The translations under genes were made by a program, and so were the position numbers. From positions 2,400,001 through 2,432,000 of the forward strand of contig NC_017448.1 of assembly GCF_000146505.1 (NCBI RefSeq): a DNA stretch of 32,000 nt, read 5' to 3'. The notes below the pieces were generated by a model that was not told the origin of the DNA, made no database searches, and saw only the letters and a program-made list of their open reading frames with translations. This document shows positions 2,469-31,221 of the stretch, one piece after another. Source of the stretch: Fibrobacter succinogenes subsp. succinogenes S85. GTDB taxonomy: Bacteria > Fibrobacterota > Fibrobacteria > Fibrobacterales > Fibrobacteraceae. The first letter of the stretch is position 1. Every line of letters begins with the position of its first letter.

Positions 2469-2497
2469 TCCCTCGGTTTTTGCCGGGGGATTTTTTT
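2469..2497 (+). terminator. Putative rho-independent terminator of the decarboxylase operon
   Basis: Imperfect GC hairpin CCCTCGG-ttttt-GCCGGGGG followed by TTTTTTT (2491-2497), about 27 nt after the stop codon. Confidence 0.5.
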
Positions 2498-2536
2498 GTT
2501 CTATAGAATTTGATTTTTGTTTTATGTTTTTGAATT

Positions 2537-2648
2537 TTCTTTGAATACTTTTGAAAATTGCTTAAATTTGCTTAAAATCGCCATTTTTGTTTTTGTGAAA
2601 ATTTGGTTCAGTCTTGCGCGTATCTGTACGATTAAGTAAATTTATAGC
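2537..2648 (+). promoter_or_regulatory. Upstream control region of cassette 1 (diverged copy of the conserved cassette leader)
   Basis: AAAATCGCCATTTTT at 2574-2588 resembles the A5-YGCC-A-T5 box of the other cassettes. TAAATTTA at 2637-2644 ends 4 nt before the ATG. There is no Shine-Dalgarno. Confidence 0.3.
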
Positions 2649-5931: not shown

Positions 5932-5963
5932 CCCCGTGGCCAATATGCCGCGGGGATTTTTTT
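5932..5963 (+). terminator. Rho-independent terminator ending cassette 1
   Basis: Stem CCCCGTGGC (5932-5940) pairs with GCCGCGGGG (5947-5955) across a 6-nt loop. A 7-T run (5957-5963) follows. Confidence 0.75.
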
Positions 5964-5984: not shown

Positions 5985-6011
5985 GTCATTCCCGCGAAGG
6001 CGGGAATCTCC
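5985..6011. repeat. REP-like hairpin element GTCATTCCCGC-GAAG-GCGGGAATCTCC (intergenic copy)
   Basis: Perfect 8-bp stem ATTCCCGC/GCGGGAAT with a GAAG loop. The same arms and flanks recur at 16310-16337 and 17075-17102 inside a CDS. Confidence 0.7.
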
Positions 6012-6141
6012 ATGTTCCAGGAATATGTATGTCATGTTCTAAAATGCTAAAAATTCTAAAATTTATGCAAAAATGGTAAAATCTGTGCAAAAATGCCATT
6101 TTTATGTTCTAGATTTAATGCAATTGAGTATATTTGTACTT
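6012..6141 (+). promoter_or_regulatory. Conserved upstream control region of cassette 2
   Basis: The region contains the near-palindrome ATGTTCCAGGAATAT (6012-6026), TGGTAAAAT (6074-6082), the perfect 7+1+7 palindrome AAAAATG-C-CATTTTT (6089-6103) and TATATTTG (6129-6136) ending 5 nt before ATG 6142. It aligns without gaps to 14591-14720. Confidence 0.5.
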
Positions 6142-6996
6142 ATGAAGGATATCGTTAAATATACGGATTACCGCAAGTACATTCAAGATTACTACGACGA
6201 ACGTAAACGCACTTCGGCGTTTTCTTGGCATATGTTTGCACAAAAGGCGGGTTTCTCGTCGGATGTTTATTTGAAGTATGTTTGCGAAGGAAAGAAAAAC
6301 CTGAGTGTTGGTTCTGCGGGTTCTGTTGCAAGTGCCATGGGCCTTGTCGGCTTCGAACAGACTTATTTCGTTTTGATGGTCTCGTACGCTCATGCAAAGG
6401 ATGACAAGACAAAACGTGCCGCGTTCGAGGAACGTTGTGCGTTAGCGCTTGCCCACAAGATGCGTGTTCTCGGTGATGAAGAATTCAATTACTTTAAATC
6501 GTGGAAAAATTCTGTGATTCGAGAATTGGCTCCGCACATGCCTGGTGCAAAGCCTCTCGAAATGGCGCGAGCTTGCAAACAAAAGATTTCTGCAACGGAA
6601 GTTTCCGAGACGCTTGATTTTTTGGTGAAGGCAAAGCTTTTAAAGAAGGACAGAAACGGAAACTACCAGCAAACGGATAAGGCCATCAGGATGGCGCCTG
6701 TAGAGGCGGTACCTTTGGCTGCTCGCGATTTGCAGCGCCAAATGGGAGAGTTCGCGATTCAGTCGCTGGATTTGCCTCTTTCTGAGCGAATGATGTCGGG
6801 CTATACGCTTGGCCTTACGCGTCGTGCTTACGAACGGATAAAAAAGGAAGTGGATGAGTTTTATCGGCGCATTGTCGCGATTGCGACAGAAGAAGATGAA
6901 ACGGAGCGTGTTTATCGCTTGAATGTGCAACTGTTCCCGATGAGCGAATGGTTGAATAAAAGTGGAACAGTTTTGAATAAGGATGAGAGAAAATGA
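6142..6996 (+). CDS. TIGR02147-type putative HTH protein, cassette 2
   Basis: The ORF is open from 6073, but the paralogues all begin MK(D/E/A)IV(K/E)YTDYRK, so ATG 6142 is taken as the start. The stop overlaps the next start (ATGA at 6993-6996). Confidence 0.8.
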   Translation: MKDIVKYTDYRKYIQDYYDERKRTSAFSWHMFAQKAGFSSDVYLKYVCEGKKNLSVGSAGSVASAMGLVGFEQTYFVLMVSYAHAKDDKTKRAAFEERCALALAHKMRVLGDEEFNYFKSWKNSVIRELAPHMPGAKPLEMARACKQKISATEVSETLDFLVKAKLLKKDRNGNYQQTDKAIRMAPVEAVPLAARDLQRQMGEFAIQSLDLPLSERMMSGYTLGLTRRAYERIKKEVDEFYRRIVAIATEEDETERVYRLNVQLFPMSEWLNKSGTVLNKDERK

Positions 6997-9206
6997 GATA
7001 TAACTTGTACAAATTATTTTCTACCATTGCTGTGGTATCTTTGACCTTTGTTGCGTGCTCTTCGGATAATGATGTCGCAGGCGGCGCTTCGGGCGATGCT
7101 GGCGTTGTTGCTGTCACGGATAGAGAAGTGGCGGGTGTTACGCAAAAGGGTCCGTTCTTGGTGGGTTCATCTGTCGCAATTCAGGAATTGAATGGATTGA
7201 CTTTGGTACAGACCGGTAGAAGCTTTAGATCGAGTATTAAAAATGATTTAGGTGATTTCTCTATCAAGGGTGTAAATCTCTCTTCTCAATATGCTTTGCT
7301 TGAAGTCAATGGGTATTATCGCAATGAAGTTTCTGGCGAAAAATCAAAAGGGATGATAGCTCTGAATGCATTGACCGACTTGAAAGACCGTAGCCATGTG
7401 AACGTGAACTTGATGACTCATTTGACGACGGACCGCATTTTGGCTTTAGTTCAAAAAGAAGGAATGTCTTTTGCTGAAGCGAAAAAACAGGCCGAAAGAG
7501 AAGTGATGACTTCGTTTGGTGTCTTGGACGATTTGGGTAATGGTGAAGACCTCAATTTGTTTGCTGGCGATGGTGGCGCAATGTTGCTTGCCATGAGTGT
7601 GCTGATGCAGGGGGATGGCTCAGAAGCAGATCTTTCTGAACGAGTTTCGCATGTGGCAACGGCGATTGTAAATAATGGCATTTGGAATGGTGACGAAAAA
7701 ACGGAAATAGCAGATTGGGCGTTTCAGATTGATGCTGTGATAAAGAAATCTAAAAAGGGTGGGAGTATGCTTCAGCTAATTCGCGAAAATGTAGAGTCGT
7801 GGCAAGTCGTGGATTCAGTTCCGCCTTTTGAAAAATACGTTAATAAATTTTGGGCTCATGAATATGGCCTTGGTGCATGTGATGAAAAAAATCTTTATGA
7901 AGTAAAAAGTAATACAAATGAATTGAGTCAATATTATAGAAATGAATTTGTATGTAACCCTGACGGCCGTTGGAGTTTGGTTCGCATGAGAGAAATTCAA
8001 AGTTCTCTTTTTGAAGAGATTCAAGATAAGGCTGATGGCGAACATTATAAAGTTATGAAAATAGGGAATAAACAATGGATGGCCGAAAATTTAAGACGAA
8101 AAAGTAATGCTTTTAATAAAGGGAATGATATATCGTATAGTACGTGCTATGACGAAAAACAATCTAATTGCGATTCTTATGGATTACTGTATGAATGGAA
8201 TGCTGCTGCTCAATTATGCCCTGAAGGGTATAAATTGCCTAGTATTTCTGATGTTAAAGCTCTTTTGCATTTTTATGGAGGTGAGGGAAAGGAGTCTGCC
8301 CAAAAACTTCGTGCTGCTGATGGGTTCGGCGCTTTATATGGAGGTCTGTATGAAGAAAAGCTCAAAGATTACATTGGTGGATTTTATTATACTGGAATTT
8401 TCGAATATTTGGGTCTTCATGAAGTGGCTAATTATTGGACTGAATCGCCGGCTTTTTTGCTCCGAATAGATTCTCTTGGTGCAAGGCTTGACAGTGTAGA
8501 TAGAAGACTTTTAGGAACGCCAGTGAGAGCGTCTGTTCGCTGTGTCAAGGATGAACAGACCGAAGCAGAAACGGGTTTTATAAAAGAACGTGTTTGTGAC
8601 CCAGTTGATAAAAATTATTGTAACGATTTCCCGATCTATTATACTGTTATAAATGGAAAAAAATGGATGACAGAGAATAGAACGAATGAATTGCAATTGG
8701 TAGAAACGAATTACGAAGTGTGTTATGACGATGAGCCTTGGTGCTCTGAAGATAATAGGTATGATGCGAAATGTAGCATGATTTCTAGCAAGGAATGTTT
8801 ATATTCATGGGAAGATGCTATGAAAGTGTGCCCTGAAGGATGGCGTTTGCCCACTCGTTCGGAATGGGAGGCCTTAATGGGCGACTCTCCTTATGTGAAT
8901 TCTCAGGGAGAAAATGGAATATATACGATGTATTTTACAGATAATTTTTCATTACATGATATTAGTCATTGGTCTGATGAATATTACGTGTCGTATGCGA
9001 ATTCTTTGGGACTTAGTATTAAACCTGCAGGATATTATGAAATGGGTTATGAAAAAGTTGAATTCGGTGCTGCTTTTTGGACTAGTTCGGATAGCTCGTC
9101 GACGGATGCTTATGCTTTTATGCTTGTAGATGCTCTTGCAGGAACCTATATCATGAAAGTTGCGGATAAACGAAATTATTACTCTGTTCGTTGCATTGAA
9201 AAATAG
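6993..9206 (+). CDS. Lipoprotein with the shared N-terminal module and two strongly diverged FISUMP-like domains
   Basis: Lipobox LTFVAC|SSD. N-module motifs are present (GVTQKGPF.VGSSV, VNVNLMTHL, AKKQAEREV). The C-terminal half retains WMAENL, CPEG(Y/W)(K/R)LP and SVRC(V/I) landmarks but is AT-rich and divergent. Confidence 0.8.
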   Translation: MRYNLYKLFSTIAVVSLTFVACSSDNDVAGGASGDAGVVAVTDREVAGVTQKGPFLVGSSVAIQELNGLTLVQTGRSFRSSIKNDLGDFSIKGVNLSSQYALLEVNGYYRNEVSGEKSKGMIALNALTDLKDRSHVNVNLMTHLTTDRILALVQKEGMSFAEAKKQAEREVMTSFGVLDDLGNGEDLNLFAGDGGAMLLAMSVLMQGDGSEADLSERVSHVATAIVNNGIWNGDEKTEIADWAFQIDAVIKKSKKGGSMLQLIRENVESWQVVDSVPPFEKYVNKFWAHEYGLGACDEKNLYEVKSNTNELSQYYRNEFVCNPDGRWSLVRMREIQSSLFEEIQDKADGEHYKVMKIGNKQWMAENLRRKSNAFNKGNDISYSTCYDEKQSNCDSYGLLYEWNAAAQLCPEGYKLPSISDVKALLHFYGGEGKESAQKLRAADGFGALYGGLYEEKLKDYIGGFYYTGIFEYLGLHEVANYWTESPAFLLRIDSLGARLDSVDRRLLGTPVRASVRCVKDEQTEAETGFIKERVCDPVDKNYCNDFPIYYTVINGKKWMTENRTNELQLVETNYEVCYDDEPWCSEDNRYDAKCSMISSKECLYSWEDAMKVCPEGWRLPTRSEWEALMGDSPYVNSQGENGIYTMYFTDNFSLHDISHWSDEYYVSYANSLGLSIKPAGYYEMGYEKVEFGAAFWTSSDSSSTDAYAFMLVDALAGTYIMKVADKRNYYSVRCIEK

Positions 9207-13392: not shown

Positions 13393-14511
13393 TTAAAGTG
13401 TCTCCATCCAGCGGGACATGAATACGTTATAGACGCTGTAGGTTTTTCCGTTTAAATCGCTTTGTTCTAGCAGTAGTTCTTTTTCGACAAGGGTTGAAAG
13501 AATTTTTTTAGCGGTGGCGCTGCTTCCTATGCCATATTTCATCAAGAAGGCGCTTGCTGTTGGTTGCTTTACGGAGCCTTCCTTGGCAACGGCGATAAGG
13601 TATTTCCACTGTTTGTCGGTAATCAGGTTGCGGCGTTCAATGAAGTTTGGGATTTCAAATCGTAAAATGCTGGATATAGTTCTTTTGACATCTTCTAGTG
13701 ATATATTTTTTGAAGATTCTGCAAATACTCTATTGCATACAAATTGAGTGTAATAGGTATGACGTTTTGTCCAATCTAATATAAAATCAACTGCATCTTT
13801 GTCAATGTTTTTTTTTGCTCTTTGAAATAGATGTGTAATAAACTCCTTATACTTCTCAGAATCGATACGGTCGATGTGAATTGTTCTGGAGCTTTCGTAA
13901 AAGGGCTTCTTTGCGTTGGTAAACATGTCTGCCATCAAGTGCTTTTTGCTACCGCAGAAAATGAATTTTACATGATGCATTTGCTGAATGTATGTTCGTA
14001 GTAAGGCTTCGGTATTTTTTTCTTTGAATTCTCTGATTTGTTGAAATTCGTCGATGGCGAGGATAATTTGTTTTTCTTGTTTTTCGAGAAAGTCGAAAAT
14101 TGATTTTAACGTCAATTTTCTTTGTTCGTCCAGCTGGAAGGTGAATGTAACTTGAGGGTTGCCTGACATGGAGTCATAACTAAGAAGCGGTCGAACGTTC
14201 TTGAGCGCAATGAAGAATTTTTTTATCAGTGACTCGTTTGCTATGGAGCTGACGATGGCTTCAGACAAGATTTTGATAAAATCGTCTAGACTTTGCGCCG
14301 AAAAAATGTCGGCGTAAATGCAAGTGTAATGTTTTTCCTTGAGGTCCTCGAATGTTCTGAAAATGAGACCCGTCTTGCCGTAGCGTCTTGGAGAAATTAA
14401 TGTGACGTTTGAACCATTGGTTAAAAAGGAGATAATGTCCTTGAGTTCTTGTTCTCGATCGCAGAAATTCTCTTTTGTTGTGTAAGGCTCTAGAGAGAAC
14501 GGGTTTTCCAT
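13393..14511 (-). CDS. AAA-type ATPase of the 'archaeal ATPase'/DUF234-like family
   Basis: 372-aa ORF on the opposite strand. It has an F.DREQEL N-terminus, Walker A SPRRYGKTGL, Walker B ILAIDEFQ and a winged-helix-like C-terminus. A GAGG Shine-Dalgarno lies 5 nt upstream. The gene is AT-rich compared with the flanks. Confidence 0.8.
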   Translation of the reverse strand: MENPFSLEPYTTKENFCDREQELKDIISFLTNGSNVTLISPRRYGKTGLIFRTFEDLKEKHYTCIYADIFSAQSLDDFIKILSEAIVSSIANESLIKKFFIALKNVRPLLSYDSMSGNPQVTFTFQLDEQRKLTLKSIFDFLEKQEKQIILAIDEFQQIREFKEKNTEALLRTYIQQMHHVKFIFCGSKKHLMADMFTNAKKPFYESSRTIHIDRIDSEKYKEFITHLFQRAKKNIDKDAVDFILDWTKRHTYYTQFVCNRVFAESSKNISLEDVKRTISSILRFEIPNFIERRNLITDKQWKYLIAVAKEGSVKQPTASAFLMKYGIGSSATAKKILSTLVEKELLLEQSDLNGKTYSVYNVFMSRWMETL

Positions 14512-14519
14512 AATAACCT

Positions 14520-14568
14520 CAATTAACTTTTAGTAAGTTACTTTTAGTAATATACCAAAAGTTAATTG
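14520..14568 (-). promoter_or_regulatory. Perfect 12-bp inverted repeat with internal direct repeats, abutting the ATPase Shine-Dalgarno
   Basis: CAATTAACTTTT (14520-14531) pairs with AAAAGTTAATTG (14557-14568) across a 25-nt spacer. ACTTTTAGTAA is repeated at 14526-14536 and 14540-14550. One arm ends in the G of the GAGG Shine-Dalgarno on the minus strand. Confidence 0.45.
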
Positions 14569-14590
14569 GAATGTCAATAGGTTGAATATT

Positions 14591-14720
14591 GTATTCCTGG
14601 AATACGGACTTTGTGTTCTGAATTGCTAAAAATTGTGTAATTTCTGCAAATATGGTAAAATTTGGCTAAAAACGCCATTTTTGTATTCCAAAAACTGCGG
14701 AAATGTCTATATTTGTACAC
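14591..14720 (+). promoter_or_regulatory. Conserved upstream control region of cassette 3
   Basis: The region contains the perfect 15-nt palindrome GTATTCCTGGAATAC (14591-14605), TGGTAAAAT (14653-14661), AAAAACGCCATTTTT (14668-14682) and TATATTTG (14708-14715) ending 5 nt before ATG 14721. There is no Shine-Dalgarno. Confidence 0.5.
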
Positions 14721-15575
14721 ATGAAGGAGATTGTAGAATACACAGACTACCGCAAGTTCATCCAGGATTACTACGATGAACGCAAGCGCAGCTCGGCTTT
14801 TACGTGGCGCGAGTTTGCCCGTGATGCGGGATTTTCGTCGGCTGTGTATTTGAAGTACGTTTGCGAGGGCAAAAAGAATCTGAGTGTAGGGTCGGCGGGA
14901 TCCGTTGCTGCGGCGATGGGGCTTGCCGGGTTCGAACAGACGTACTTTGTCTTGATGGTTTCGTATGCGCATGCGAAAGATGACAAGGCGAGACGTGCCG
15001 CGTTCGAAGAACGCTGTGCGCTCGCGCATGCCCACAAGGTACGTGTGCTCGGGAACGAGGAATTCGATTATTTCAAGTCGTGGAAGAATCCGGTATTGCG
15101 CGAGATTGCTCCGCACATGCCTGGTGCCAAGCCTCTTGAAATGGCTCGTAAGTGCAAGCCGCAGATTTCTGCGGCGGAGGTCTCCGAGACGCTTGACTTT
15201 TTGGTGCGCGCGAAGCTCTTGAAGAAGGACAAGAGCGGAAACTACGAACAGACGGACAAGTCGTTATCGATGGGGTCGGTCGATGCAGTGCCTGTGGCGG
15301 CTCGCGATATGCAACGTGAAATGGGGGAATTTGCGGTGAAGGCTTTGGACTTGCCGCTTTCGGAACGTGACATGTCGGGGCTTACCATGGGGCTCACGCG
15401 CCGTGCTTACGAAAAAATCAGGAAAGAAATCGCGGATTTTCGCCGCCGCATTGTGGCGATTGCGAGTGAGGATGACGAGACGGAACAGGTGTACCGCCTG
15501 AATTTGCAGTTGTTCCCGCTGAGCGAACGTCTTGACGATTGCGATGATAAAAATAAAGGTGTTGGGAAAAAGTAA
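14721..15575 (+). CDS. TIGR02147-type putative HTH protein, cassette 3
   Basis: The ORF is open from 14703. The start is set to ATG 14721 (MKEIVEYTDYRKFIQDYYDERKR) by alignment with the paralogues. Confidence 0.8.
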   Translation: MKEIVEYTDYRKFIQDYYDERKRSSAFTWREFARDAGFSSAVYLKYVCEGKKNLSVGSAGSVAAAMGLAGFEQTYFVLMVSYAHAKDDKARRAAFEERCALAHAHKVRVLGNEEFDYFKSWKNPVLREIAPHMPGAKPLEMARKCKPQISAAEVSETLDFLVRAKLLKKDKSGNYEQTDKSLSMGSVDAVPVAARDMQREMGEFAVKALDLPLSERDMSGLTMGLTRRAYEKIRKEIADFRRRIVAIASEDDETEQVYRLNLQLFPLSERLDDCDDKNKGVGKK

Positions 15576-15583
15576 GGAGAAAA

Positions 15584-17680
15584 GTGATGATTAATTGGCG
15601 CAGGATGCTGAATGTTCGCGCGACCATTGTGCTCGCTCTTGCTGTGCTGTTGACGTCGTGTTCCGACGACAAGGTGGCGGGCGGTACTACGGAAGATGCG
15701 GGGCTTGCCATCAAGAATTTGGACGTGGCAGGGCTTGCGCAAAAGGGGCCGTTTGTCAAAGGCTCTGTCGTGACTGTGCAGGGCGTGGATTGCAAGACGA
15801 TGGATTTCACGGACGAAGTTTTCGAAGGCTCCGTGATAAACAATGATGGTGAATATGTTGTTGAAAATGTGAATTTGTCTGTTGCTTGTGCTTTGCTTGA
15901 AGTGACGGGCTATTACCTCAATGAAAATACCGGTAAAAAATCAACGGGTGAAATCTCGCTCCATACGCTGACGGATTTGGGCGACCGCAAGAATGTGAAC
16001 ATCAACGTGTTTACGGAACTGGAATACAAGCGCGTGATGATCCTCAACACTGAAAAGAAGGTGTCTTTTGCGGATGCTAAAAAACAGGCTGAAAAAGAAG
16101 TGCTTGCTGCGTTTGATGTGAAAGCGGAAAATGGCGATTTCTCCTTGTTCGAAGACTTGGACGTCTTTGAAAAGGGTAAAGAGAATGTTGCGCTCCATGA
16201 TGTGAGCGTGATGTTGCAGGCGGATTTGGACGCTACGGAACTCGCAGAACGCTTGGAAAACATTGCCGCCGACATTGCGAAAGATGGCAAATGGGATGAT
16301 CGCGATTCTGTCATTCCCTCCTCGAGCGGGAATCTCCCCTCGTCCAGCAGCTCCTCCGTCATCGCTAGCGAAGCGAAGCAATCTAGTAACAGTATAAAAG
16401 ACTCTTACCTGAATCCAAACATTGCTTATGGCGAAATGACCGACTCCCGTGACGGACAAGTTTACAAGATCGTAAAGATTGGGGAGCAAGTTTGGATGGC
16501 GCAAAATTTGAACTATGAAGCGGCGACCAGTTATTGCTACAATGATGGTGCGGAATATTGCGAAAAGTATGGCCGGTTGTACACCTGGGCCGCGTCAGTG
16601 GACAAGTCGGAGAAAGAGTGCGGACTCGGAAACGAATGCAATCTGGCGTCTGGGAATATTCGTGGTATTTGTCCCGATGGCTGGTATTTGCCCAGCGGAG
16701 CTGATTTTGAGACTTTAATCAAGGCTGTGGGTGGCGAAAAAGGTGCCGGCGCTAAACTGAAGTCTTTGAGTGGCTGGCGTGACGATGGTGGTGTAAGTGG
16801 CAACGGCACTGACACATTCGGATTCTCGGCACTGCCTGTTGGCGTCGGTATGCAGGGCTTCTACGGTGAGGGGTACGGTGCGCAATTCTGGGGCTCTACG
16901 GAATGCGGTAGCGCGAGTGCTGCTGATAAAGGTTACAGCTGTGCGTCTATAATGAGCTTGGACTATGACGATGTCGACGTGAGCTTGAGGAGCTACGCTG
17001 CTAAGGACTTCAAGTTCTCTGTCCGCTGCATCAAGGAAGATGGTGAATTTGTTCCGGTGTCCAGCAACTCCTCTGTCATTCCCGCCTCGAGCGGGAATCT
17101 CCCCTCATCTAGTTCAGTTACCTTAGCAACGCCGTGCAAGACTGAAACAGAAGACAATTGTGAATATGGAACTTTGGCTGATTCCCGTGACGGACAAACC
17201 TACAAGACGGTGAAAATCGGTGATCAGGTTTGGATGGCGGAAAACTTGAACTATGAAAATGGAAATAGTATGTGCTACAGTGATGATAGTACTAAATGCG
17301 GTAAGTCTGGTCGTATTTACACTTGGGATGCTGCAAAAGAGGTTTGTCCGAGTGGATGGCATTTGCCTGATACAACGGAATGGGTTGCTTTATTCTCTGC
17401 GGTGGGAACTCGGGGAATGGCTGGTCGGAATCTCAAGTCGACCACTGGATGGGCTGATAATGGAAATGGCGTTGATGCATATGGTTTTTCTGTATTGCCT
17501 ATTGCTTTTTGGGATGATCCAGATTTCATTGCTAGGGATGAGTATGCGTTGTTCTGGAGCTCTACAGAAGTGGACGCCGATAAAGCTGAATTGCAACATT
17601 TTTACATGAGTTATGATTCGGTAATCCACGGTTCTTTTTCTAAGAAAATGGCCGTCTCTATCCGTTGTCTCAAAGATTAG
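15584..17680 (+). CDS. Lipoprotein with the shared N-terminal module and two FISUMP domains
   Basis: An AAGGAG Shine-Dalgarno precedes GTG 15584 / ATG 15587. Lipobox LLTSC|SDD. There are two canonical FISUMP domains, each preceded by a Ser-rich linker that carries the hairpin element. Confidence 0.85.
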   Translation: MMINWRRMLNVRATIVLALAVLLTSCSDDKVAGGTTEDAGLAIKNLDVAGLAQKGPFVKGSVVTVQGVDCKTMDFTDEVFEGSVINNDGEYVVENVNLSVACALLEVTGYYLNENTGKKSTGEISLHTLTDLGDRKNVNINVFTELEYKRVMILNTEKKVSFADAKKQAEKEVLAAFDVKAENGDFSLFEDLDVFEKGKENVALHDVSVMLQADLDATELAERLENIAADIAKDGKWDDRDSVIPSSSGNLPSSSSSSVIASEAKQSSNSIKDSYLNPNIAYGEMTDSRDGQVYKIVKIGEQVWMAQNLNYEAATSYCYNDGAEYCEKYGRLYTWAASVDKSEKECGLGNECNLASGNIRGICPDGWYLPSGADFETLIKAVGGEKGAGAKLKSLSGWRDDGGVSGNGTDTFGFSALPVGVGMQGFYGEGYGAQFWGSTECGSASAADKGYSCASIMSLDYDDVDVSLRSYAAKDFKFSVRCIKEDGEFVPVSSNSSVIPASSGNLPSSSSVTLATPCKTETEDNCEYGTLADSRDGQTYKTVKIGDQVWMAENLNYENGNSMCYSDDSTKCGKSGRIYTWDAAKEVCPSGWHLPDTTEWVALFSAVGTRGMAGRNLKSTTGWADNGNGVDAYGFSVLPIAFWDDPDFIARDEYALFWSSTEVDADKAELQHFYMSYDSVIHGSFSKKMAVSIRCLKD
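16310..16337 (+). repeat. REP-like hairpin element inside coding linker 1 (GTCATTCCCTC-CTCGA-GCGGGAATCTCC)
   Basis: 27 of 28 nt match the copy at 17075-17102. The arms and flanks match the intergenic copy at 5985-6011. In frame it reads V-I-P-S-S-S-G-N-L. Confidence 0.7.
16358..16383 (+). repeat. Second hairpin-type element in the same linker (GTCATCGCTAGCGAAGCGAAGCAATC)
   Basis: It has the same GTCAT...AATC frame with a different, imperfect stem (ATCGCT/AGCAAT). It reads VIASEAKQS. Confidence 0.4.
17075..17102 (+). repeat. REP-like hairpin element inside coding linker 2 (GTCATTCCCGC-CTCGA-GCGGGAATCTCC)
   Basis: Perfect 8-bp stem ATTCCCGC/GCGGGAAT with a 5-nt loop. It lies 765 nt (255 codons) downstream of the first CDS copy, in the same frame. 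Confidence 0.7.
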
Positions 17681-17705: not shown

Positions 17706-20147
17706 GTGAAGAAATTCATAAGTAAATCAATTACTTTGTTGATGGCAATTGCTTCGGCGGGGATGCTCTCGGCTTGCCTGGATGATAAAGTTGCAGGCGG
17801 CGTCACGGAAGATGCAGGGCTCGCCATTAAGGACTTGAATGTGGCGGGCTTGGCGCAAAAGGGCCCGTTTGTCAAGGGATCTGTAGTGACTGTGCAGGGT
17901 GTTGACTGCAAGACGATGAAGTTCACGGAAGAAGAATTTACAGGCGAAGTCAAGAGCAACAAGGGCGACTTTGACGTTGACGATGTGAATCTCTCTGCGA
18001 CTTGCGCGTTGTTCTCTGTGTCCGGCTATTACATGAATGAATTTACCGGTGAGAAATCTTCGGATAAGTTGACGCTCCATGCGATTACGGATTTGAAAGA
18101 CCGCAAACATGTGAACATCAATGTGCTTACGGAATTGGAATACGAGCGCGTGATGAAGCTTGTCTCCAAAGAGAAAATGTCCTTTGACGATGCTAAGATG
18201 CAGGCAGAAAAGGAAATCCTAGCCGCGTTAGGTTTGGTGGATCGCTTTGAGTCGTTCGAAGGCTTGAGCATTTATGAAAAGGGCGACGGGAATGCTGCCC
18301 TCCTTGCGACGAGTGTAATGCTGCAATCGGATTTGGATGCTGAAAAGCTCACGGACCGTTTGGATGGCTTTGCTTCGTCCATCGCGGAAAGTGGCGAATG
18401 GGACGATGAAAAGACGAAAAAGAAAATGACGGATTGGGCGGATTCTGCAAAGTCCAGGGGCAAATACGAAACGATTCGCGACAATCTTGAAAAATGGAGC
18501 GACTCCGATGAAATCCCCGACTTTGAAAAAGTCGTCGATGAAATAAATAAGGATGCCAAGGAAACTACTCAGAAAATCCCTGAAGAGTGGAGCTGGGATG
18601 TACCGCAGTCCGCTCGCCTGAATCCGAATATCAAATACGATACGATGATTGACCCGCGCGATAAACAAGTCTATAAGGTCGTGAAAATTGAAGTGAAGGA
18701 GCATGATTATTCGCAGGTGTGGATGGCAGAAAACCTGAACTATGCCGATAGCGTCAAGACGCCGAGCTTGAAAGGCCAAAACTGGTGCTACAATAATGAT
18801 GAGAAAAATTGTAAGGTAAGCGGTCGCTATTACACTTGGGCGGCGGCGATAGACTCTGTGGCTTTGGCAAACGATTCAAAGAATCCGCTGAATTGCGGTT
18901 ATGGCAAGACGTGTGGAATTAATCGCGGAGTGCAGGGAATTTGCCCTGACGGCTGGCATTTGCCGACGCTCCATGAATGGGGATTGTTGGGCGTAGCTCT
19001 GGGGAACGCTGGCGTGGCCGGAGATAGCCTCAAGGCGCTGACTGGCTGGGATTACGCCGGAACGGCTGACAATAACGGCGTAGATGCCTATGGATTTGCG
19101 GCGCTTCCGACCGGAAGGATGGTTTCTACATCTAGCTGGAGCAATGTTGGTTCTAATGTTTATTATTGGAGTTCCGAAGAGGATGGTACGTATGAAGCGC
19201 GATATTCGAATATAAACAACATTTATACTAAATTCTATTTGTTCCAAGGTTCAAAAAAATATGGACAGAGTGTACGTTGCATCAAGGGTGATCCTTCGAC
19301 TGCAGCGATTAAATCTTCTTCAAGTTCTAGTGTTGGCGAAACGAAGTCTAGCAGCAGTTCTGCAAAATTGAGTAGCAGTGTGGTTGTGTCCAGCAGTAGT
19401 CAAGTAAAAATGAGTAGCAGTTCTGTAGTTCCTTCCGGCTGGAGCTGGGACGTGCCTAAGGAATTGCGCTTTAATCCGAATATCAAATACGACTCAATGG
19501 TTGACCCGCGTGACAAGCGTGTGTATAAAGTTGTGAAAATCGAAGTGAAAGAAAGGGATTATTCAAAGGTGTGGATGGCGGAGAACTTGAACTACGATGA
19601 TAGCGTCAAGACGCCGAGTTTGAAGGGCAATAGCTGGTGCTACCACGATACCACGAAATATTGCGAGGTGAGCGGTCGCTATTACACTTGGGCTGCGGCG
19701 ATTGATTCAGTTGCGCTGGCAAATGATCCTAAGGATCCGTTGAATTGCGGTTATGGCAAGACTTGTGGACTTAATCGCCAGATACAGGGAATTTGTCCTG
19801 ACGGTTGGCACTTGCCGGTTCGTGATGAATGGGGCTGGTTGAGCGTGTACTTAGGGAATGCGGGCGTGGCCGGCGATACCCTCAAGGCTTTGACCGGATG
19901 GGATTATGCCGGAACAGAAGACAATAACGGTGTGGATGCCTATGGATTTACGGCACTCCCGACTGGACGAAGAATCTCTGAAACTAACTGGAGCAACATT
20001 GGTTCTAATGTCTATTATTGGATCTCTGAAGAAGAGGATGCGTATGAGGCTCAGTATTCGAATATAAACAACATTTATACCAAATTCTATTTGTACCAAG
20101 GCTCAAAAACTTATGGACAAAGTGTCCGCTGCGTGAAGGATGAGTAA
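17706..20147 (+). CDS. Lipoprotein with the shared N-terminal module and two FISUMP domains of the 'WSWDVP' subfamily
   Basis: GTG start preceded by AAGGAGAAGGA. Lipobox MLSAC|LDD. The two domains are close paralogues of those in 3509-5905 and are separated by a Ser-rich linker. Confidence 0.85.
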   Translation: MKKFISKSITLLMAIASAGMLSACLDDKVAGGVTEDAGLAIKDLNVAGLAQKGPFVKGSVVTVQGVDCKTMKFTEEEFTGEVKSNKGDFDVDDVNLSATCALFSVSGYYMNEFTGEKSSDKLTLHAITDLKDRKHVNINVLTELEYERVMKLVSKEKMSFDDAKMQAEKEILAALGLVDRFESFEGLSIYEKGDGNAALLATSVMLQSDLDAEKLTDRLDGFASSIAESGEWDDEKTKKKMTDWADSAKSRGKYETIRDNLEKWSDSDEIPDFEKVVDEINKDAKETTQKIPEEWSWDVPQSARLNPNIKYDTMIDPRDKQVYKVVKIEVKEHDYSQVWMAENLNYADSVKTPSLKGQNWCYNNDEKNCKVSGRYYTWAAAIDSVALANDSKNPLNCGYGKTCGINRGVQGICPDGWHLPTLHEWGLLGVALGNAGVAGDSLKALTGWDYAGTADNNGVDAYGFAALPTGRMVSTSSWSNVGSNVYYWSSEEDGTYEARYSNINNIYTKFYLFQGSKKYGQSVRCIKGDPSTAAIKSSSSSSVGETKSSSSSAKLSSSVVVSSSSQVKMSSSSVVPSGWSWDVPKELRFNPNIKYDSMVDPRDKRVYKVVKIEVKERDYSKVWMAENLNYDDSVKTPSLKGNSWCYHDTTKYCEVSGRYYTWAAAIDSVALANDPKDPLNCGYGKTCGLNRQIQGICPDGWHLPVRDEWGWLSVYLGNAGVAGDTLKALTGWDYAGTEDNNGVDAYGFTALPTGRRISETNWSNIGSNVYYWISEEEDAYEAQYSNINNIYTKFYLYQGSKTYGQSVRCVKDE
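18588..20141 (+). repeat. Intragenic duplication of the WSWDVP-type FISUMP unit (852-nt period)
   Basis: TGGAGCTGGG starts a unit at 18588 and again at 19440. The encoded units are collinear and highly similar. Confidence 0.8.
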
Positions 20148-20182
20148 ATAGTGGTTAGTAAATAGTGGTTGGTGGTCAGTGG

Positions 20183-20216
20183 AAAAAGTCCTCGCTAGTG
20201 TGGCGGGGCTTTTTTG
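20183..20216 (+). terminator. Putative rho-independent terminator ending cassette 3
   Basis: Imperfect hairpin AAAAGTCCTCGC-tagtgtg-GCGGGGCTTTTTT with a T-run at 20210-20215. Confidence 0.55.
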
Positions 20217-20346
20217 TGTTCTTAGGATACATTTTGTGTTCTGAAATTTTGCGTAATTCGTATAAAAATGGCTGAAAACGTAAAAATTAAGCGAAAAACG
20301 GCAATTTTTGTATTCCATTATTATTGAATAAACTATATTTGTAATC
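20216..20346 (+). promoter_or_regulatory. Conserved upstream control region of cassette 4
   Basis: The region contains a degenerate palindrome GTGTTCTTAGGATAC (20216-20230), AAAAACGGCAATTTTT (20294-20309) and TATATTTG (20334-20341) ending 5 nt before ATG 20347. There is no Shine-Dalgarno. Confidence 0.45.
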
Positions 20347-21219
20347 ATGAAGGCGATTGTTGAATATACAGATTATCGCAAGTTCATTCAGGATTATTAT
20401 GATGAACGCAAACGCGACTCCGCTTTAACTTGGCGCGAGTTTGCTCAGAAAGCCGGTTTTGCATCGGCCATTTTTCTGAAGTATGTTTGTGAAGGCAAAA
20501 AGAATCTGAGTATCAGCGCTGCGGGTTCCGTTGCAGATGCCATGGGGCTTGTCGGTTTTGAAAGAACGTACTTTGTTCTGATGGTGATGTACGCCCATGC
20601 CAAAGGGGACGAGGCCAAAATGGCGGCGTTCGAAAAATGCTGTGCCTTGGCGAGGGCGCATAAGGTTCGTGTGCTCGGTAGCGAAGAATTTGATTATTAC
20701 AGGTCTTGGAAAAATCCGTTGATTCGTGAACTCGCTCCGCACATGCCGGGAGCAATGCCTTCTGAAATGGCGCGTGCTTGCAGGCCGAAAATCTCTACAG
20801 CCGAAGTTGCTGAAACGCTTGATTTTTTGGAAGATGCAAATCTCCTAAAAAAAGACCAGGAAGGAAATTATGTGCAGACGGACAAGTCCATATCGATGGG
20901 CTCCGTGGAAGCGGTTCCGCTTGCGGCGCGTGATTTGCAACGCCAGATGGGCGAGCTTGCCGTAAGGGCTATAAATTTCCCGCTTGCGGAGCGCTCCATG
21001 TCGGGTGTTGTCTTGGGGCTTACGCAGGAGTCCTATGAGCGTGTCAAGAAGGAACTTTTGGAATGCCGTCGCCGCATTATCGCCATTGCTACGGAAAGTA
21101 ACAAGACGCAGCGTGTGTACCGCTTGAACTTGCAGTTGTTCCCGTTGAGCGAAGATCTGGATGTTGCTAACGATGCTTTAAAAAATAAGGAGGAGAGGAA
21201 TGATAAGAAACGAGTCTAG
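20347..21219 (+). CDS. TIGR02147-type putative HTH protein, cassette 4
   Basis: 290-aa ORF starting MKAIVEYTDYRKFIQDYYDERKR. It overlaps the next gene by 20 nt. Confidence 0.8.
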   Translation: MKAIVEYTDYRKFIQDYYDERKRDSALTWREFAQKAGFASAIFLKYVCEGKKNLSISAAGSVADAMGLVGFERTYFVLMVMYAHAKGDEAKMAAFEKCCALARAHKVRVLGSEEFDYYRSWKNPLIRELAPHMPGAMPSEMARACRPKISTAEVAETLDFLEDANLLKKDQEGNYVQTDKSISMGSVEAVPLAARDLQRQMGELAVRAINFPLAERSMSGVVLGLTQESYERVKKELLECRRRIIAIATESNKTQRVYRLNLQLFPLSEDLDVANDALKNKEERNDKKRV

Positions 21220-30238: not shown

Positions 30239-30375
30239 AGAGACCTCAATTAGTAGTAAAGATAATAAAAAACGTCGTTTTTGTAAAAAAATTGAATTTT
30301 GTTGGGGTTGTTTTAGTCCAAAACGCCTTTTCGTGTGTGTTATATAAATAGGAACCCTTAAAAAAAGGAATGTTT

Positions 30376-31221
30376 ATGAGGATTTTTTGGACTTTGATGG
30401 TGGCGGCTTCGGTCTTTTTGGGCGGTTGCATGTACGTGAGCGGGTCGGCGGAAGGCGAAACTTCGCTGCATGCGACGGCGATAGACGTAGGGCAGGGGCT
30501 AGCGGTGCTCCTCGAATATGACGGTCGCTATGCGATGTACGATTTTGGGCCAGATTCGGTTGGCGTGGTGGATTCGCTTTTGGCGCGCGGGGTCGATACG
30601 CTTGAATGGGTGGTGCTGAGCCATAATCATCGGGACCATATTGGCGGGTTTATGGAACTTGTAGGGCGGGACGTTTTTGTGCGGCGTCTGTACGTGGGGC
30701 CGGATACGGCGGGCGGCTTTTATCGCGATAGTGTCTTGCGGGTGGCGAGAGCGCTTGGAATGCCAGTGGATACGCTATTGCGAGGCGAGAACGTAAGTTT
30801 TGGGGGTGGGTCTAATGGCTTTGATGTGTTGTGGCCGACGAGTTATCTTCGTGTGGGCGAGAATCGCGCGAGCTTGGTGCTACTCGGAAAGTTTGGAGCA
30901 AGCAAGATGCTTTTGACGGGTGACCTGGATTCGGTGGGCGAGCGTCATGTGCTTGAGATGAACCCGACGCTTTCGGCTGAACTTTTGCAGGTGGCGCATC
31001 ACGGTTCGGCCGGGAGCAATACGCTAAGCTTCTTGTCGCAGGTATCGCCGAAGTACGCGTTTGTGAGCGTTGGTGCGGAGAACCGCTATGGGCATCCTGT
31101 GCCATCTGTTGTCCGTAAGTTGAACTTGGTGCTCGGCGATTCGCTGAAACTTTATCGCACCGATTTACAAGGCACTCTTCGCTTTGAACTCTCCCCAAGC
31201 ATGGGCGTGGTTGTACCGTAG
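30376..31221 (+). CDS. ComEC-type metallo-beta-lactamase-fold lipoprotein
   Basis: The ORF is open from ATG 30370. ATG 30376 is better spaced from the AAGGA Shine-Dalgarno. Lipobox FLGGC|MY. MBL motifs are SHNHRDHIGG, LLTGDL and VAHHGS. Confidence 0.75.
   Translation: MRIFWTLMVAASVFLGGCMYVSGSAEGETSLHATAIDVGQGLAVLLEYDGRYAMYDFGPDSVGVVDSLLARGVDTLEWVVLSHNHRDHIGGFMELVGRDVFVRRLYVGPDTAGGFYRDSVLRVARALGMPVDTLLRGENVSFGGGSNGFDVLWPTSYLRVGENRASLVLLGKFGASKMLLTGDLDSVGERHVLEMNPTLSAELLQVAHHGSAGSNTLSFLSQVSPKYAFVSVGAENRYGHPVPSVVRKLNLVLGDSLKLYRTDLQGTLRFELSPSMGVVVP

What the first reader, a model, noticed from the sequence alone, without database searches (positions are those of the whole stretch)
14591..14720. 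Position-locked palindromes in the ~130-nt leader of each cassette (candidate operators)
Seen in sequence: the upstream regions of cassettes 2 and 3 align base for base without indels over about 130 nt, from 6012 to ATG 6142 and from 14591 to ATG 14721. Cassette 4 (20216-20346) aligns with 1-nt slippage, and cassette 1 is a diverged version. Two dyads keep a fixed distance to the start codon. (a) GTATTCCTGGAATAC (14591-14605, perfect 15-nt palindrome) matches ATGTTCCAGGAATAT (6012-6026) and GTGTTCTTAGGATAC (20216-20230). Its centre lies 123-124 nt before the ATG. (b) AAAAATG-C-CATTTTT (6089-6103, perfect) matches AAAAACGCCATTTTT (14668-14682), AAAAACGGCAATTTTT (20294-20309) and AAAATCGCCATTTTT (2574-2588). 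Its centre lies 46 nt before the ATG in cassettes 2-4. Inference: dyad symmetry at a fixed phase upstream of genes encoding HTH-like proteins suggests autoregulatory operators. The central base and flanks differ between cassettes, so each paralogue could have its own specificity.
Basis: partly seen in the sequence, partly recalled or inferred. Interest (0 to 1): 0.7.

Follow-up and report, generated by a model that had tools for sequence, protein, structure and literature searches.

The report
Paralogue-specific operators in a leaderless promoter
The 130 bases before each of these Fibrobacter regulator genes look like an untranscribed promoter-and-operator region, not an mRNA leader: one of the two reported palindromes is a real recognition site that changes in step with the regulator, and the other is a by-product of bent, A/T-rich promoter DNA.

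Summary

**Dyad (a)** is a real 17-bp palindrome (c3: TGTATTCC-T-GGAATACA).
- Its half-site recurs as single copies at fixed positions 21-22 bp and about 91 bp downstream.
- The last copy lies where a -35 box should be.
- All four half-sites switch together between paralogue clades (TGTRTTCY, YATGTTCY, TGTATCCA, TTGTTTTA and others).
- The site type follows the N-terminal helix-turn-helix region (T28/R30 versus S28/H or Q30).

**Dyad (b)** is conserved, but not as a palindrome.
- Its inner pairs are mostly broken, it shows no covariation, and it carries no paralogue signal.
- It is the last of about six A-tracts phased at roughly 10 bp, joined to the T-run that flanks the third half-site.

**The "leader"** is probably not transcribed.
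- A TATATT box sits 7 nt before the ATG.
- There is no Shine-Dalgarno sequence, although all nine downstream cassette genes have one.
- Diverged family members carry TTGACN-17-TATATT-7-ATG.

Best reading: a leaderless operon whose first gene is an XRE-like regulator that acts on its own paralogue-specific operators. No binding or transcription start was tested, and the sign of regulation is unknown.

The parts
14590..14606 (.).
   Evidence: Half-site pattern peaks at -131/-130 (59/69 sequences) and, inverted, at -122/-121 (60/69). Two-sided covariation GC:35 / AU:27 with none broken.
14612..14619 (+). S2, cassette 3: single direct copy of the half-site (TGTGTTCT), 22 bp after the left arm of S1
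   Evidence: Peak at -110 to -108 in 60/69 sequences.
14620..14667 (.). Array of phased A-tracts between S2 and S3. Includes the highly conserved TGGTAAAAT (14653-14661), which resembles an extended -10 box.
   Evidence: AAA runs start near -101, -92, -82, -72, -64 and -52. Spectral power at a 9.5-bp period is 3.99 against 0.25 +/- 0.03 in shuffles. The c1 class shows the same.
14668..14682 (.). This is the position an UP element would occupy.
   Evidence: Information content 1.1 bit (A arm), 0.54 (core), 0.78 (T arm). No palindrome covariation. Information about type at most 0.14 bit.
14682..14689 (+). S3, cassette 3: single half-site TGTATTCC at -39 to -32, overlapping the expected -35 position
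   Evidence: Peak at -40 to -37 in 61/69 sequences. The sigma-70 scan finds no -35 hexamer on this strand.
14708..14713 (+). -10 box TATATT, 7 nt before the ATG; no Shine-Dalgarno sequence between them
   Evidence: TAnnTT[TC] starts at -13 in 88 of 110 regions (in 82 it is the only match). Highest information content of the region, 1.5 bit. TTGACN-17-TATATT-7-ATG in L054, L055 and L059.
14721..15575 (+). Cassette 3 TIGR02147/DUF4423 gene, proposed regulator and first gene of the operon
   Evidence: TIGR02147 E = 4e-100. N-terminal five-helix HTH in the AF2 model.
6011..6027 (.). S1, cassette 2: CATGTTCC-A-GGAATATG, A-type
6033..6040 (+). S2, cassette 2: CATGTTCT
6089..6103 (.). Dyad b, cassette 2: AAAAATGCCATTTTT
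6103..6110 (+). S3, cassette 2: TATGTTCT
6129..6134 (+). -10 box TATATT, cassette 2; the ATG is at 6142
20215..20231 (.). S1, cassette 4: TGTGTTCT-T-AGGATACA, G-type
20235..20242 (+). S2, cassette 4: TGTGTTCT, 20 bp after the left arm of S1
20294..20309 (.). Dyad b, cassette 4: AAAAACGGCAATTTTT
20309..20316 (+). S3, cassette 4: TGTATTCC
20334..20339 (+). -10 box TATATT, cassette 4; the ATG is at 20347
2496..2509 (.). S1, cassette 1: TTGTTCTATAGAAT, c1-type half-site TTGTT(T/C)TA
2517..2526 (+). S2, cassette 1: TTGTTTTATG, 21 bp after S1
2574..2588 (.). Dyad b, cassette 1: AAAATCGCCATTTTT
2587..2596 (+). S3, cassette 1: TTGTTTTTGT, 70 bp after S2 and upstream of a separate -35 box
2614..2642 (+). 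Cassette 1 core promoter: TTGCGC, 17 nt, TAAATT, then 6 nt to the ATG at 2649
   Evidence: Other members of the c1 class have TTGCAT-17-TATTTT.

Best explanation
The roughly 130 bp before each TIGR02147 gene is an untranscribed promoter-and-operator module, and the mRNA is leaderless.

Core promoter:
- It is a TATATT -10 box ending 7 nt before the ATG, so transcription should start at or next to the A of the start codon.
- In the main class (cassettes 2-4) there is no -35 hexamer. An 8-nt half-site (S3) occupies -39 to -32 instead.

Recognition sites:
- It occurs again as a single direct copy (S2) two helical turns downstream of S1.
- About six A-tracts phased at roughly 10 bp fill the 70 bp between S2 and S3. 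They should bend the DNA and could bring the upstream sites towards the promoter.
- Dyad b is the promoter-proximal end of this A/T array, at the position an UP element would occupy. It is not a palindromic operator.

Proposed reader:
- The half-site is read by the XRE-like N-terminal helix-turn-helix domain of the TIGR02147 protein encoded just downstream.
- Each paralogue clade would then control its own operon: the regulator gene followed by SD-led FISUMP and lipoprotein genes.

Shown by computation: the architecture, the fixed geometry, the concerted type switching, the link to the N-terminal region, the promoter signals and the predicted fold.

Inferred: binding by the cognate protein, a start site at the ATG, DNA bending or looping, and the sign of regulation. 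I lean towards S3 acting positively on a promoter that lacks a -35 box (as in lambda PRM, PhoB or MotA), with repression possible at high occupancy.
For: Conserved architecture:
- 110 upstream regions were collected, 93 of them non-redundant.
- Half-sites peak at -131/-130, -122/-121 (inverted), -110 to -108 and -40 to -37, each in 59-61 of 69 main-class sequences.
- The S1-S2 distance of 21-22 bp and the S2-S3 distance of 70-72 bp are kept in the main, c1 and L048 classes.

Concerted switching:
- Other clades carry TGTATCCA, TTGTTTTA, TGTACTC or TGTATAA, each repeated within its own region.
- Columns that carry information about type lie only in S1, S2, S3 and at -14.
- RNAalifold finds only the S1 palindrome, with a GC:35 / AU:27 pair and none broken.

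Link to the protein:
- Four protein positions separate A-type from G-type completely: 28, 30, 183 and 241.
- The natural chimera L024_7021 has an A-type upstream region and an A-type HTH (S28, H30), but S183 and R241 as in the G clade.
- The AF2 N-terminal domain has pLDDT 77-90. Its best local Foldseek matches are XRE-type repressors: DdrO, C.BclI, C.Esp1396I, SinR, ClgR, lambda cI and Stl.

Promoter and leaderless start:
- A -10-like box starts at -13 in 88 of 110 regions.
- L054, L055 and L059 carry a canonical TTGACN-17-TATATT-7-ATG.
- None of the 4 TIGR02147 genes has an SD, while all 9 downstream cassette genes do.
- Other Fibrobacter genes (aroC-, malQ- and pepS-like) show TATATT-N7-ATG.
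- Only 37% of genes in Fibrobacteria are reported to have an SD (PMC10783764).

Portability:
- Five loci carry the whole G-type module in front of a lipoprotein gene that has its own SD-containing leader, with no TIGR02147 gene behind the module.

A-tract phasing.
Against: - There is no experimental binding or start-site data, and the searchable literature says nothing about TIGR02147 or DUF4423 function.
- The type switches are few evolutionary events. The A-type clade is monophyletic, and the second A-type case is a recombinant that carries the upstream DNA and the HTH together because they are adjacent. The counts across sequences therefore overstate independence.
- Membership of the XRE family is not supported by sequence: no Pfam HTH hit (only CYNS_N, E = 0.17) and non-significant hhalign results.
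- All Foldseek E-values are 0.05 or higher, and the model's mean pLDDT is 64.
- S2 and S3 are lone half-sites, which is unusual for a dimeric HTH protein.
- A site centred on -35 could repress as easily as activate.
- The conserved TGGTAAAAT could be a second, upstream promoter that would produce a leader of about 55 nt.
Confidence: 0.62

Rival explanations
1. One reading: both dyads are palindromic, paralogue-specific operators lying in a transcribed 130-nt leader.
For: Both elements sit at fixed distances from the ATG and are conserved in many species. Dyad b is a perfect palindrome in cassette 2.
Against: - The inner pairs of dyad b are broken in 34-49 of 63 sequences, and pairing is no better than in shuffles.
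- Core pairing is 37 of 184.
- Dyad b carries no type information.
- The -10 box abuts the ATG and there is no SD.
- No Rfam family matches, and no conserved RNA fold exists beyond S1.
Confidence: 0.08
2. A second promoter at TGGTAAAAT (an extended -10 box, about -65) produces an mRNA with a leader of about 55 nt. Dyad b and S3 would then lie just after that start site and act as a roadblock-type repressor site, or on the RNA.
For: - TGGTAAAATTTG is the second most conserved block, at 0.93 bit.
- Many G-type regions have TTG about 17 nt upstream of it.
- SD-less mRNAs with leaders are plausible in Fibrobacter.
Against: - The TG is replaced by CG in the cassette-4 clade, and the hexamer becomes GAAATT or TAAATT in the c1 class.
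- The sigma-70 scan finds nothing on this strand.
- The block fits the A-tract phasing.
- This model does not explain the invariant TATATT-7-ATG spacing.
- It could also coexist with the proximal promoter.
Confidence: 0.15
3. The sites are read by something other than the adjacent TIGR02147 protein, such as another paralogous factor, or S1 acts as a DNA or RNA hairpin. Dyad b and the A-tract region would be bound by a shared factor such as the RNA polymerase alpha subunit, a nucleoid protein, or the second (winged-helix-like) domain.
For: - The two-sided covariation in S1 is also what a hairpin would show.
- G-T combinations outnumber A-C at arm position 4, 16 against 3.
- The A/T block is independent of type.
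- The model shows a helix-helix-helix-strand-strand unit at residues 124-177.
Against: - The same base changes occur in the unpaired copies S2 and S3, which a hairpin does not explain.
- The TIGR02147 gene is the only paralogue-specific gene with a DNA-binding-like fold in each cassette.
Confidence: 0.12
4. There is no function. The similarity is left over from cassette duplication, or the repeats are recombination or inversion sites for phase variation of surface-protein operons.
For: The cassettes are paralogous and encode likely surface proteins. S1's right arm and S3 are in inverted orientation.
Against: - Conservation is patchy: information content is 0.14-0.28 bit in the spacers and 0.5-1.5 bit in the elements, across species whose proteins are only 55-60% identical.
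- All 93 non-redundant regions have the same orientation.
- No recombinase gene lies in the window.
Confidence: 0.03

Closest known systems
Lambda cI at OR/PRM, and lambdoid or 434-type repressors
   Same: - An XRE/Cro-C1-type HTH regulator (fold level only here).
- It is transcribed from a promoter it regulates itself.
- The promoter has a poor -35 box with an operator overlapping or adjoining it.
- The mRNA starts at the AUG. That cI mRNA from PRM is leaderless is my own knowledge.
- Distant operators cooperate by bending or looping the DNA.
   Different: - Here there is one full palindrome far upstream (-123) plus two lone half-sites, rather than three adjacent 17-bp operators.
- Phased A-tracts connect the sites.
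- The protein carries an additional DUF4423 or winged-helix-like part.
- There is no divergent lytic promoter.
- Many orthogonal paralogues occur in one chromosome.
Controller (C) proteins of restriction-modification systems (C.AhdI, C.Esp1396I, C.BclI, C.PvuII)
   Same: - Small XRE-type HTH proteins that appear among the best structural matches.
- They are the first gene of the operon they autoregulate through sites around -35.
- Leaderless transcripts have been reported for C.PvuII (my own knowledge).
- Different systems have different 'C-box' specificities.
   Different: - C-boxes are two adjacent palindromes (OL and OR) within about 35 bp. Here the sites are spread over about 100 bp.
- TIGR02147 proteins are about 285 aa with extra domains.
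- The downstream genes are FISUMP and lipoprotein genes, not restriction enzymes.
Activators whose sites replace the -35 box (PhoB pho boxes, T4 MotA boxes, lambda cII)
   Same: A good -10 box, no -35 hexamer, and a specific site in direct-repeat or half-site form over the -35 region.
   Different: The protein folds are different. Activation is not shown here, and in the c1, L048 and L054 classes a good -35 box coexists with S3 placed further upstream.
UP elements and A-tract-curved upstream promoter DNA
   Same: Dyad b lies at -53 to -39 and is an A-run followed by a T-run. The upstream tracts are phased at about 10 bp.
   Different: The conserved G/C core (YGS) inside dyad b is not a feature of UP elements. 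Contact with the RNA polymerase alpha subunit was not tested.

Membership tests
TIGR02147 / DUF4423 (the proteins behind the element) | Score above the curated cut-off of the family HMM | tested here: met
   TIGR02147 scores 293-358 bits against a cut-off of 50. PF14394 scores 90-104 bits against a cut-off of 30.
XRE / Cro-C1 (lambda-repressor-like) HTH regulators | Significant sequence match to an HTH_3-type profile or to a known member | tested here: not met
   Pfam on residues 1-106 returns only CYNS_N at E = 0.17. hhalign against SinR and 434 Cro gives E = 0.15 and 0.53, although the 434 Cro alignment falls in the expected helix 2-turn register. No PDB sequence homologue.
XRE / Cro-C1 (lambda-repressor-like) HTH regulators | Five-helix domain with a helix-turn-helix that superposes on known members | tested here: inconclusive
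   In the AF2 model, residues 10-100 have pLDDT 77-90. The top local Foldseek matches are all XRE-type (DdrO N-terminal domain: rmsd 1.7 over 61 residues, probability 1.0), but E-values are 0.05-0.5 and none is at or below 0.001.
Autoregulatory operator of the adjacent regulator | Site enriched upstream of family members, at a fixed position, and conserved above its flanks | tested here: met
   For dyad a (S1-S3). Dyad b is conserved and fixed in position, but not as a dyad.
Autoregulatory operator of the adjacent regulator | Site sequence co-varies with the DNA-binding domain of the regulator | tested here: met
   Met for S1-S3: with few independent events. Not met for dyad b, whose information about type is at most 0.14 bit.
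Autoregulatory operator of the adjacent regulator | The protein binds the site and changes transcription | not testable with these tools
   Needs EMSA, footprinting, DAP-seq or reporter assays.
Leaderless mRNA | Transcription start at, or within a few nt of, the start codon | not testable with these tools
   Indirect evidence only: the -10 box sits at a fixed distance of 7 nt, there is no SD while all downstream genes have one, and 110 of 113 start codons are ATG.
Bacteroidota-type promoter (-33 TTTG / -7 TAnnTTTG) | Both motifs present with a spacer of about 19-21 nt (consensus from my own knowledge) | tested here: not met
   TATATTTG fits the -7 motif in the main class, but the nearest TTTG is 24 nt upstream. 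The c1 and outgroup classes, and the divergent ATPase promoter, are of the TTGACA-17-TATATT type.
Known RNA leader or riboswitch (Rfam) | Match at gathering score, or a conserved covarying fold | tested here: not met
   Only one tRNA in the whole window. The alignment fold finds only the S1 palindrome. The z-score of -3.1 for the single sequence comes from pairing between repeated half-sites.
Intrinsic terminator | G+C-rich stem followed by a T-run | tested here: not met
   The terminators lie just upstream of S1 in cassettes 2 and 4 (5932-5955 and 20190-20208). Cassette 3 has none, yet it has S1.

The most novel reading that the evidence does not exclude
Fibrobacter may carry a set of at least five or six orthogonal regulator-operator pairs (XRE-like HTH plus DUF4423), one at the head of each paralogous FISUMP surface-protein operon. 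Orphan modules and occasional half-sites of another type would wire the cassettes together. The network would then decide which surface-protein cassettes are expressed, a locus-specific switch functionally analogous to UpxY/UpxZ control of Bacteroides capsule loci.
Probability: 0.15. Interest if true: 0.75.

Novelty: new variant of a known kind. Interest (0 to 1): 0.5.

Why it matters
TIGR02147 and FISUMP (TIGR02145) are among the largest paralogous families of Fibrobacter, a major fibre-degrading genus of the rumen, and neither has a known function.

If this reading holds:
- It assigns TIGR02147 a role as locus-specific transcription factors.
- It gives the operator sequence for each clade and a candidate specificity residue (R30 with G, H or Q30 with A).
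- It provides a first promoter model for the phylum: TTGACA-17-TATATT, with frequent leaderless starts.
- It supplies a natural series of orthogonal regulator-operator pairs that could be tested directly or reused as genetic parts.

Tried and rejected
1. **Dyad b as a conserved palindrome.** Rejected.
2. **A larger inverted repeat, AAAATTTGC-N8-GCAAATTTT.** I thought I saw compensatory changes by eye. Pairing is 70.4% against 70.7% in shuffles, so it is rejected.
3. **A fifth half-site at +15 of cassette 3 (AGAATACA).** It comes from the E-Y-T codons and is not type-specific. Rejected.
4. **A Bacteroidota-type -33/-7 promoter.** The spacing is wrong and it is absent from other classes.
5. **A conserved RNA leader structure or Rfam family.** None found.
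6. **Internal operator copies in front of the FISUMP genes of this window.** Only scattered single 8-mers at roughly chance level.
7. **Transcript ends from public assemblies.** The single contig found was uninformative.
8. **Literature.** Nothing on TIGR02147, on DUF4423 function, or on Fibrobacter promoters or start sites.
10. **Cross-type extra half-sites near -142 in A-type cassettes.** Only 5 cases, too few to interpret.

Full report
**What is in the window**

The window carries four cassettes. Each begins with a TIGR02147/DUF4423 gene, with ATGs at 2649, 6142, 14721 and 20347, followed by FISUMP (TIGR02145) genes. Close matches in the genome collection are all Fibrobacter assemblies.

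- Cassettes 2 and 3 align without gaps at 93/130 identity. Shifted registers give 31-48/130 and the preceding 130 nt give 27/130.
- Cassette 4 differs by a net 1 nt but through several indels.

**Comparative set**

I extracted 110 TIGR02147 genes with 220 nt of upstream sequence from 62 Fibrobacter loci plus the window. This reduced to 93 non-redundant regions, of which 69 form a 'main class' like cassettes 2-4. Conservation anchored on the ATG is patchy rather than uniform. Spacers carry 0.14-0.28 bit per position and the named elements 0.5-1.5 bit.

**Dyad (a) is one of several copies of a half-site**

A loose pattern that leaves positions 1, 2, 4 and 8 free (NNTNT[TC]CN) shows sharp peaks:
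- at -131/-130 (left arm of S1);
- at -122/-121 on the other strand (right arm of S1);
- at -110 to -108 (S2);
- at -40 to -37 (S3).

Each peak is present in 59-61 of 69 sequences. S1 is a 17-bp palindrome. S2 and S3 are single direct copies.

The S1-S2 spacing of 21-22 bp and the S2-S3 spacing of 70-72 bp also hold in the diverged cassette-1 class and the L048 class.

Dyad-a-type 15-mers give 162 strand-hits inside 18.7 kb of TIGR02147 upstream DNA and 22 in the other 940 kb. Of the 11 sites behind those 22 hits, 5 precede TIGR02147 genes that my filter had dropped, 5 are orphan modules, and 1 (L041 14177) lies in an unrelated sequence context.

**The copies change together**

It is A in 27 sequences (YATGTTCY, including cassette 2) and G in 35 (TGTRTTCY, including cassettes 3 and 4). 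Other clades use TGTATCCA, TTGTTTTA (cassette 1), TGTACTC or TGTATAA, each repeated within its own region.

Columns that carry information about type lie only in S1, S2, S3 and at -14. An alignment fold of 63 regions recovers only the S1 palindrome, with one pair split GC:35 / AU:27 and none broken. A hairpin could explain symmetric change within S1. It cannot explain the same change in the unpaired copies S2 and S3, so a trans-acting reader whose specificity differs between clades is the simpler account.

Caveat: these are few evolutionary events. The A-type clade is monophyletic and nested within G types.

**Link to the protein**

Four of about 284 protein positions separate A-type from G-type perfectly:

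| Position | G-type | A-type |
|---|---|---|
| 28 | T | S |
| 30 | R | H or Q |
| 183 | S | T, K, R or M |
| 241 | R | Y, W, C or F |

L024_7021, which was not used to find these positions, is a natural chimera. It has an A-type upstream region and an A-type N-terminal segment (S28, H30, QK, D41), but S183 and R241 as in the G clade, where its protein also sits in the tree. So the site type follows the N-terminal segment. The two are physically adjacent, however, so one recombination event would carry both.

The AF2 model has mean pLDDT 64, rising to 77-90 for residues 10-100. It shows a five-helix N-terminal domain whose best local matches are all XRE-type repressors (DdrO, C.BclI, C.Esp1396I, NHTF, SinR, ClgR, lambda cI, Stl). 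Residues 124-177 form a helix-helix-helix-strand-strand unit.

Sequence-level support for XRE membership is absent. Pairing Arg30 with G and His or Gln30 with A would fit common recognition patterns, but that is my inference.

**Dyad (b) is not a palindromic operator**

Only the A-run and the T-run are conserved.
- The three inner pairs are unpaired in 41, 49 and 34 of 63 sequences.
- Overall pairing is 65.5%, against 67.6% when partners are shuffled.
- The common cores are asymmetric: CGCAAA, CGCTAA, TGCAAA.
- The columns say nothing about paralogue type.
- A larger inverted repeat that I suspected also failed the test.

What the region does show is runs of A starting near -101, -92, -82, -72, -64 and -52. 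Spectral power at a 9.5-bp period is 3.99, against 0.25 +/- 0.03 in shuffles. The cassette-1 class gives 1.77 against 0.28.

Dyad b is the last A-tract plus the T-run that leads into S3, at -53 to -39, where an UP element would lie. It is therefore a real conserved element, shared by all paralogues. Its palindromic look in cassette 2 is incidental.

**The region is a promoter, not a leader**

- A TAnnTT[TC] box starts at -13 in 88 of 110 regions. TATATTTG-N5-ATG occurs three times in the window, against 0.5 expected.
- It is the most conserved element, at 1.5 bit.
- Diverged members (L054, L055, L059) have TTGACN-17-TATATT-7-ATG, and the cassette-1 class has TTGCAT or TTGCGC, 17 nt, then a -10 box.
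- The divergent ATPase gene next to cassette 3 has TTGACA-17-TGgTATATT (14577-14549, minus strand) and a GAGG Shine-Dalgarno sequence. Fibrobacter therefore uses sigma-70-like promoters.
- None of the four TIGR02147 genes has a Shine-Dalgarno sequence, whereas all nine downstream cassette genes do.
- Other Fibrobacter genes show TATATT-N7-ATG at their true N-termini.
- Published surveys report a weak or infrequent SD in this phylum (PMC10783764, PMC3155529).
- In the main class there is no -35 hexamer and no TG extension; S3 occupies -39 to -32.

**Orphan modules**

Five loci (L022, L023, L025, L038, L041) carry a complete G-type module about 3 kb downstream of a G-type TIGR02147 gene. Each module has S1, S2, the A-tracts, TGGTAAAAT or a close variant of it, a dyad-b-like block, S3 and cTATATTTGTAGG. 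Behind it lies a lipoprotein gene with its own leader of about 48 nt and an SD, instead of a regulator gene. A Pfam scan of the L023 lipoprotein and its neighbours found no family for the lipoprotein and identified the gene between regulator and module as FISUMP. This shows the module is a portable promoter-operator unit. It also suggests regulation in trans.

**Mechanism**

My best-supported account is a leaderless operon whose first product, an XRE-like regulator, reads its own clade-specific half-sites.
- A dimer would sit on S1, with further contacts at S2 and S3.
- Intrinsically bent A-tract DNA would bring the upstream sites towards a promoter that lacks a -35 box.

The closest analogues are lambda cI at PRM and the restriction-modification controller proteins. 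Both combine an XRE-type HTH, autoregulation around -35 and (from my own knowledge) leaderless transcripts.

I lean towards a positive role for S3 in the main class, because nothing else supplies a -35 function. Repression is equally compatible with its position. Binding, the start site, bending and the sign of regulation are all inferred.

**Novelty**

No paper in the searchable library discusses TIGR02147 function, its operators, or Fibrobacter promoters or start sites. The kind of system is familiar. The three-site geometry, the phased A-tracts, the extra protein domain and the many orthogonal paralogues in one genome make it a variant worth testing, not a new category.

Noticed in passing
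L023:13217-13345 (also L022 ~11174, L025 ~13224, L038 ~12694, L041 ~12703): Complete G-type operator-promoter module with no TIGR02147 gene behind it. It drives a lipoprotein gene (L023 13389-14309, no Pfam hit) through a leader of about 48 nt with an AAGGAAG SD. A degraded remnant of ATGAAGGAG (GTGAGGGAT) follows the -10 box.
   Followed up: partly
L024, gene starting at 7021: Natural chimera: A-type upstream region and A-type N-terminal HTH segment, fused to a C-terminal part typical of the G clade.
   Followed up: partly
window 14549-14577 (- strand): Near-consensus promoter TTGACA-17-TGgTATATT for the divergent ATPase gene (13393-14511), which has a GAGG SD. S1 of cassette 3 lies about 56 bp upstream of that promoter's expected start and could also influence it. 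The GTCAATAGG block recurs upstream of S1 in several loci.
   Followed up: no
window 5988-6007 and 17081-17100: Small hairpin element GTCATTCCCGC-N4/5-GCGGGAATCTCC. One copy lies between the terminator and S1 of cassette 2; it is also found in L043 and L030. A second copy lies inside the FISUMP coding region of cassette 3. It may be a REP-like repeat.
   Followed up: no
window 14721-14735 and the equivalent positions in other loci: The first codons (ATGAAGGAnATcGT) are conserved at the nucleotide level, including third positions (mean 1.47 bit). This might reflect constraints on translating a leaderless mRNA.
   Followed up: no
window 14630-14661 compared with 14680-14713: The block TTGTGTAATTTCTGCAAATATGGTAAAAT resembles TTGTATTCCAAAAACTGCGGAAATGTCTATATT. 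The upstream TGGTAAAAT region may be an old tandem copy of the S3-plus-core-promoter unit, with a degenerate half-site.
   Followed up: no
window 30268-30282 and 30321-30336: Look-alikes of dyad b (AAAAACGTCGTTTTT and CCAAAACGCCTTTTCG) upstream of a metallo-beta-lactamase-fold gene (30370-31221) that has its own SD. The A-run, CG core, T-run pattern is therefore not exclusive to TIGR02147 promoters.
   Followed up: partly
L038 5509, L041 6970, L039 337, L028 10001, L029 10001 (about -142 to -151 from the ATG): Five A-type cassettes carry an extra G-type half-site just upstream of S1. This could mean cross-regulation between paralogues, but the numbers are too small to judge.
   Followed up: partly
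window 20143-20170: Tandem AGTAAATAGTGGTT x2 just after the stop codon of the gene upstream of cassette 4. Similar short 'AGTAAC/TAGT' repeats occur in L052 and near window 14520-14545.
   Followed up: no
L055:9850-10000: The outgroup member has TGTACTC half-sites, including an inverted copy inside the spacer of a consensus TTGACT-17-TATATT promoter. That position is typical of a repressor site.
   Followed up: no
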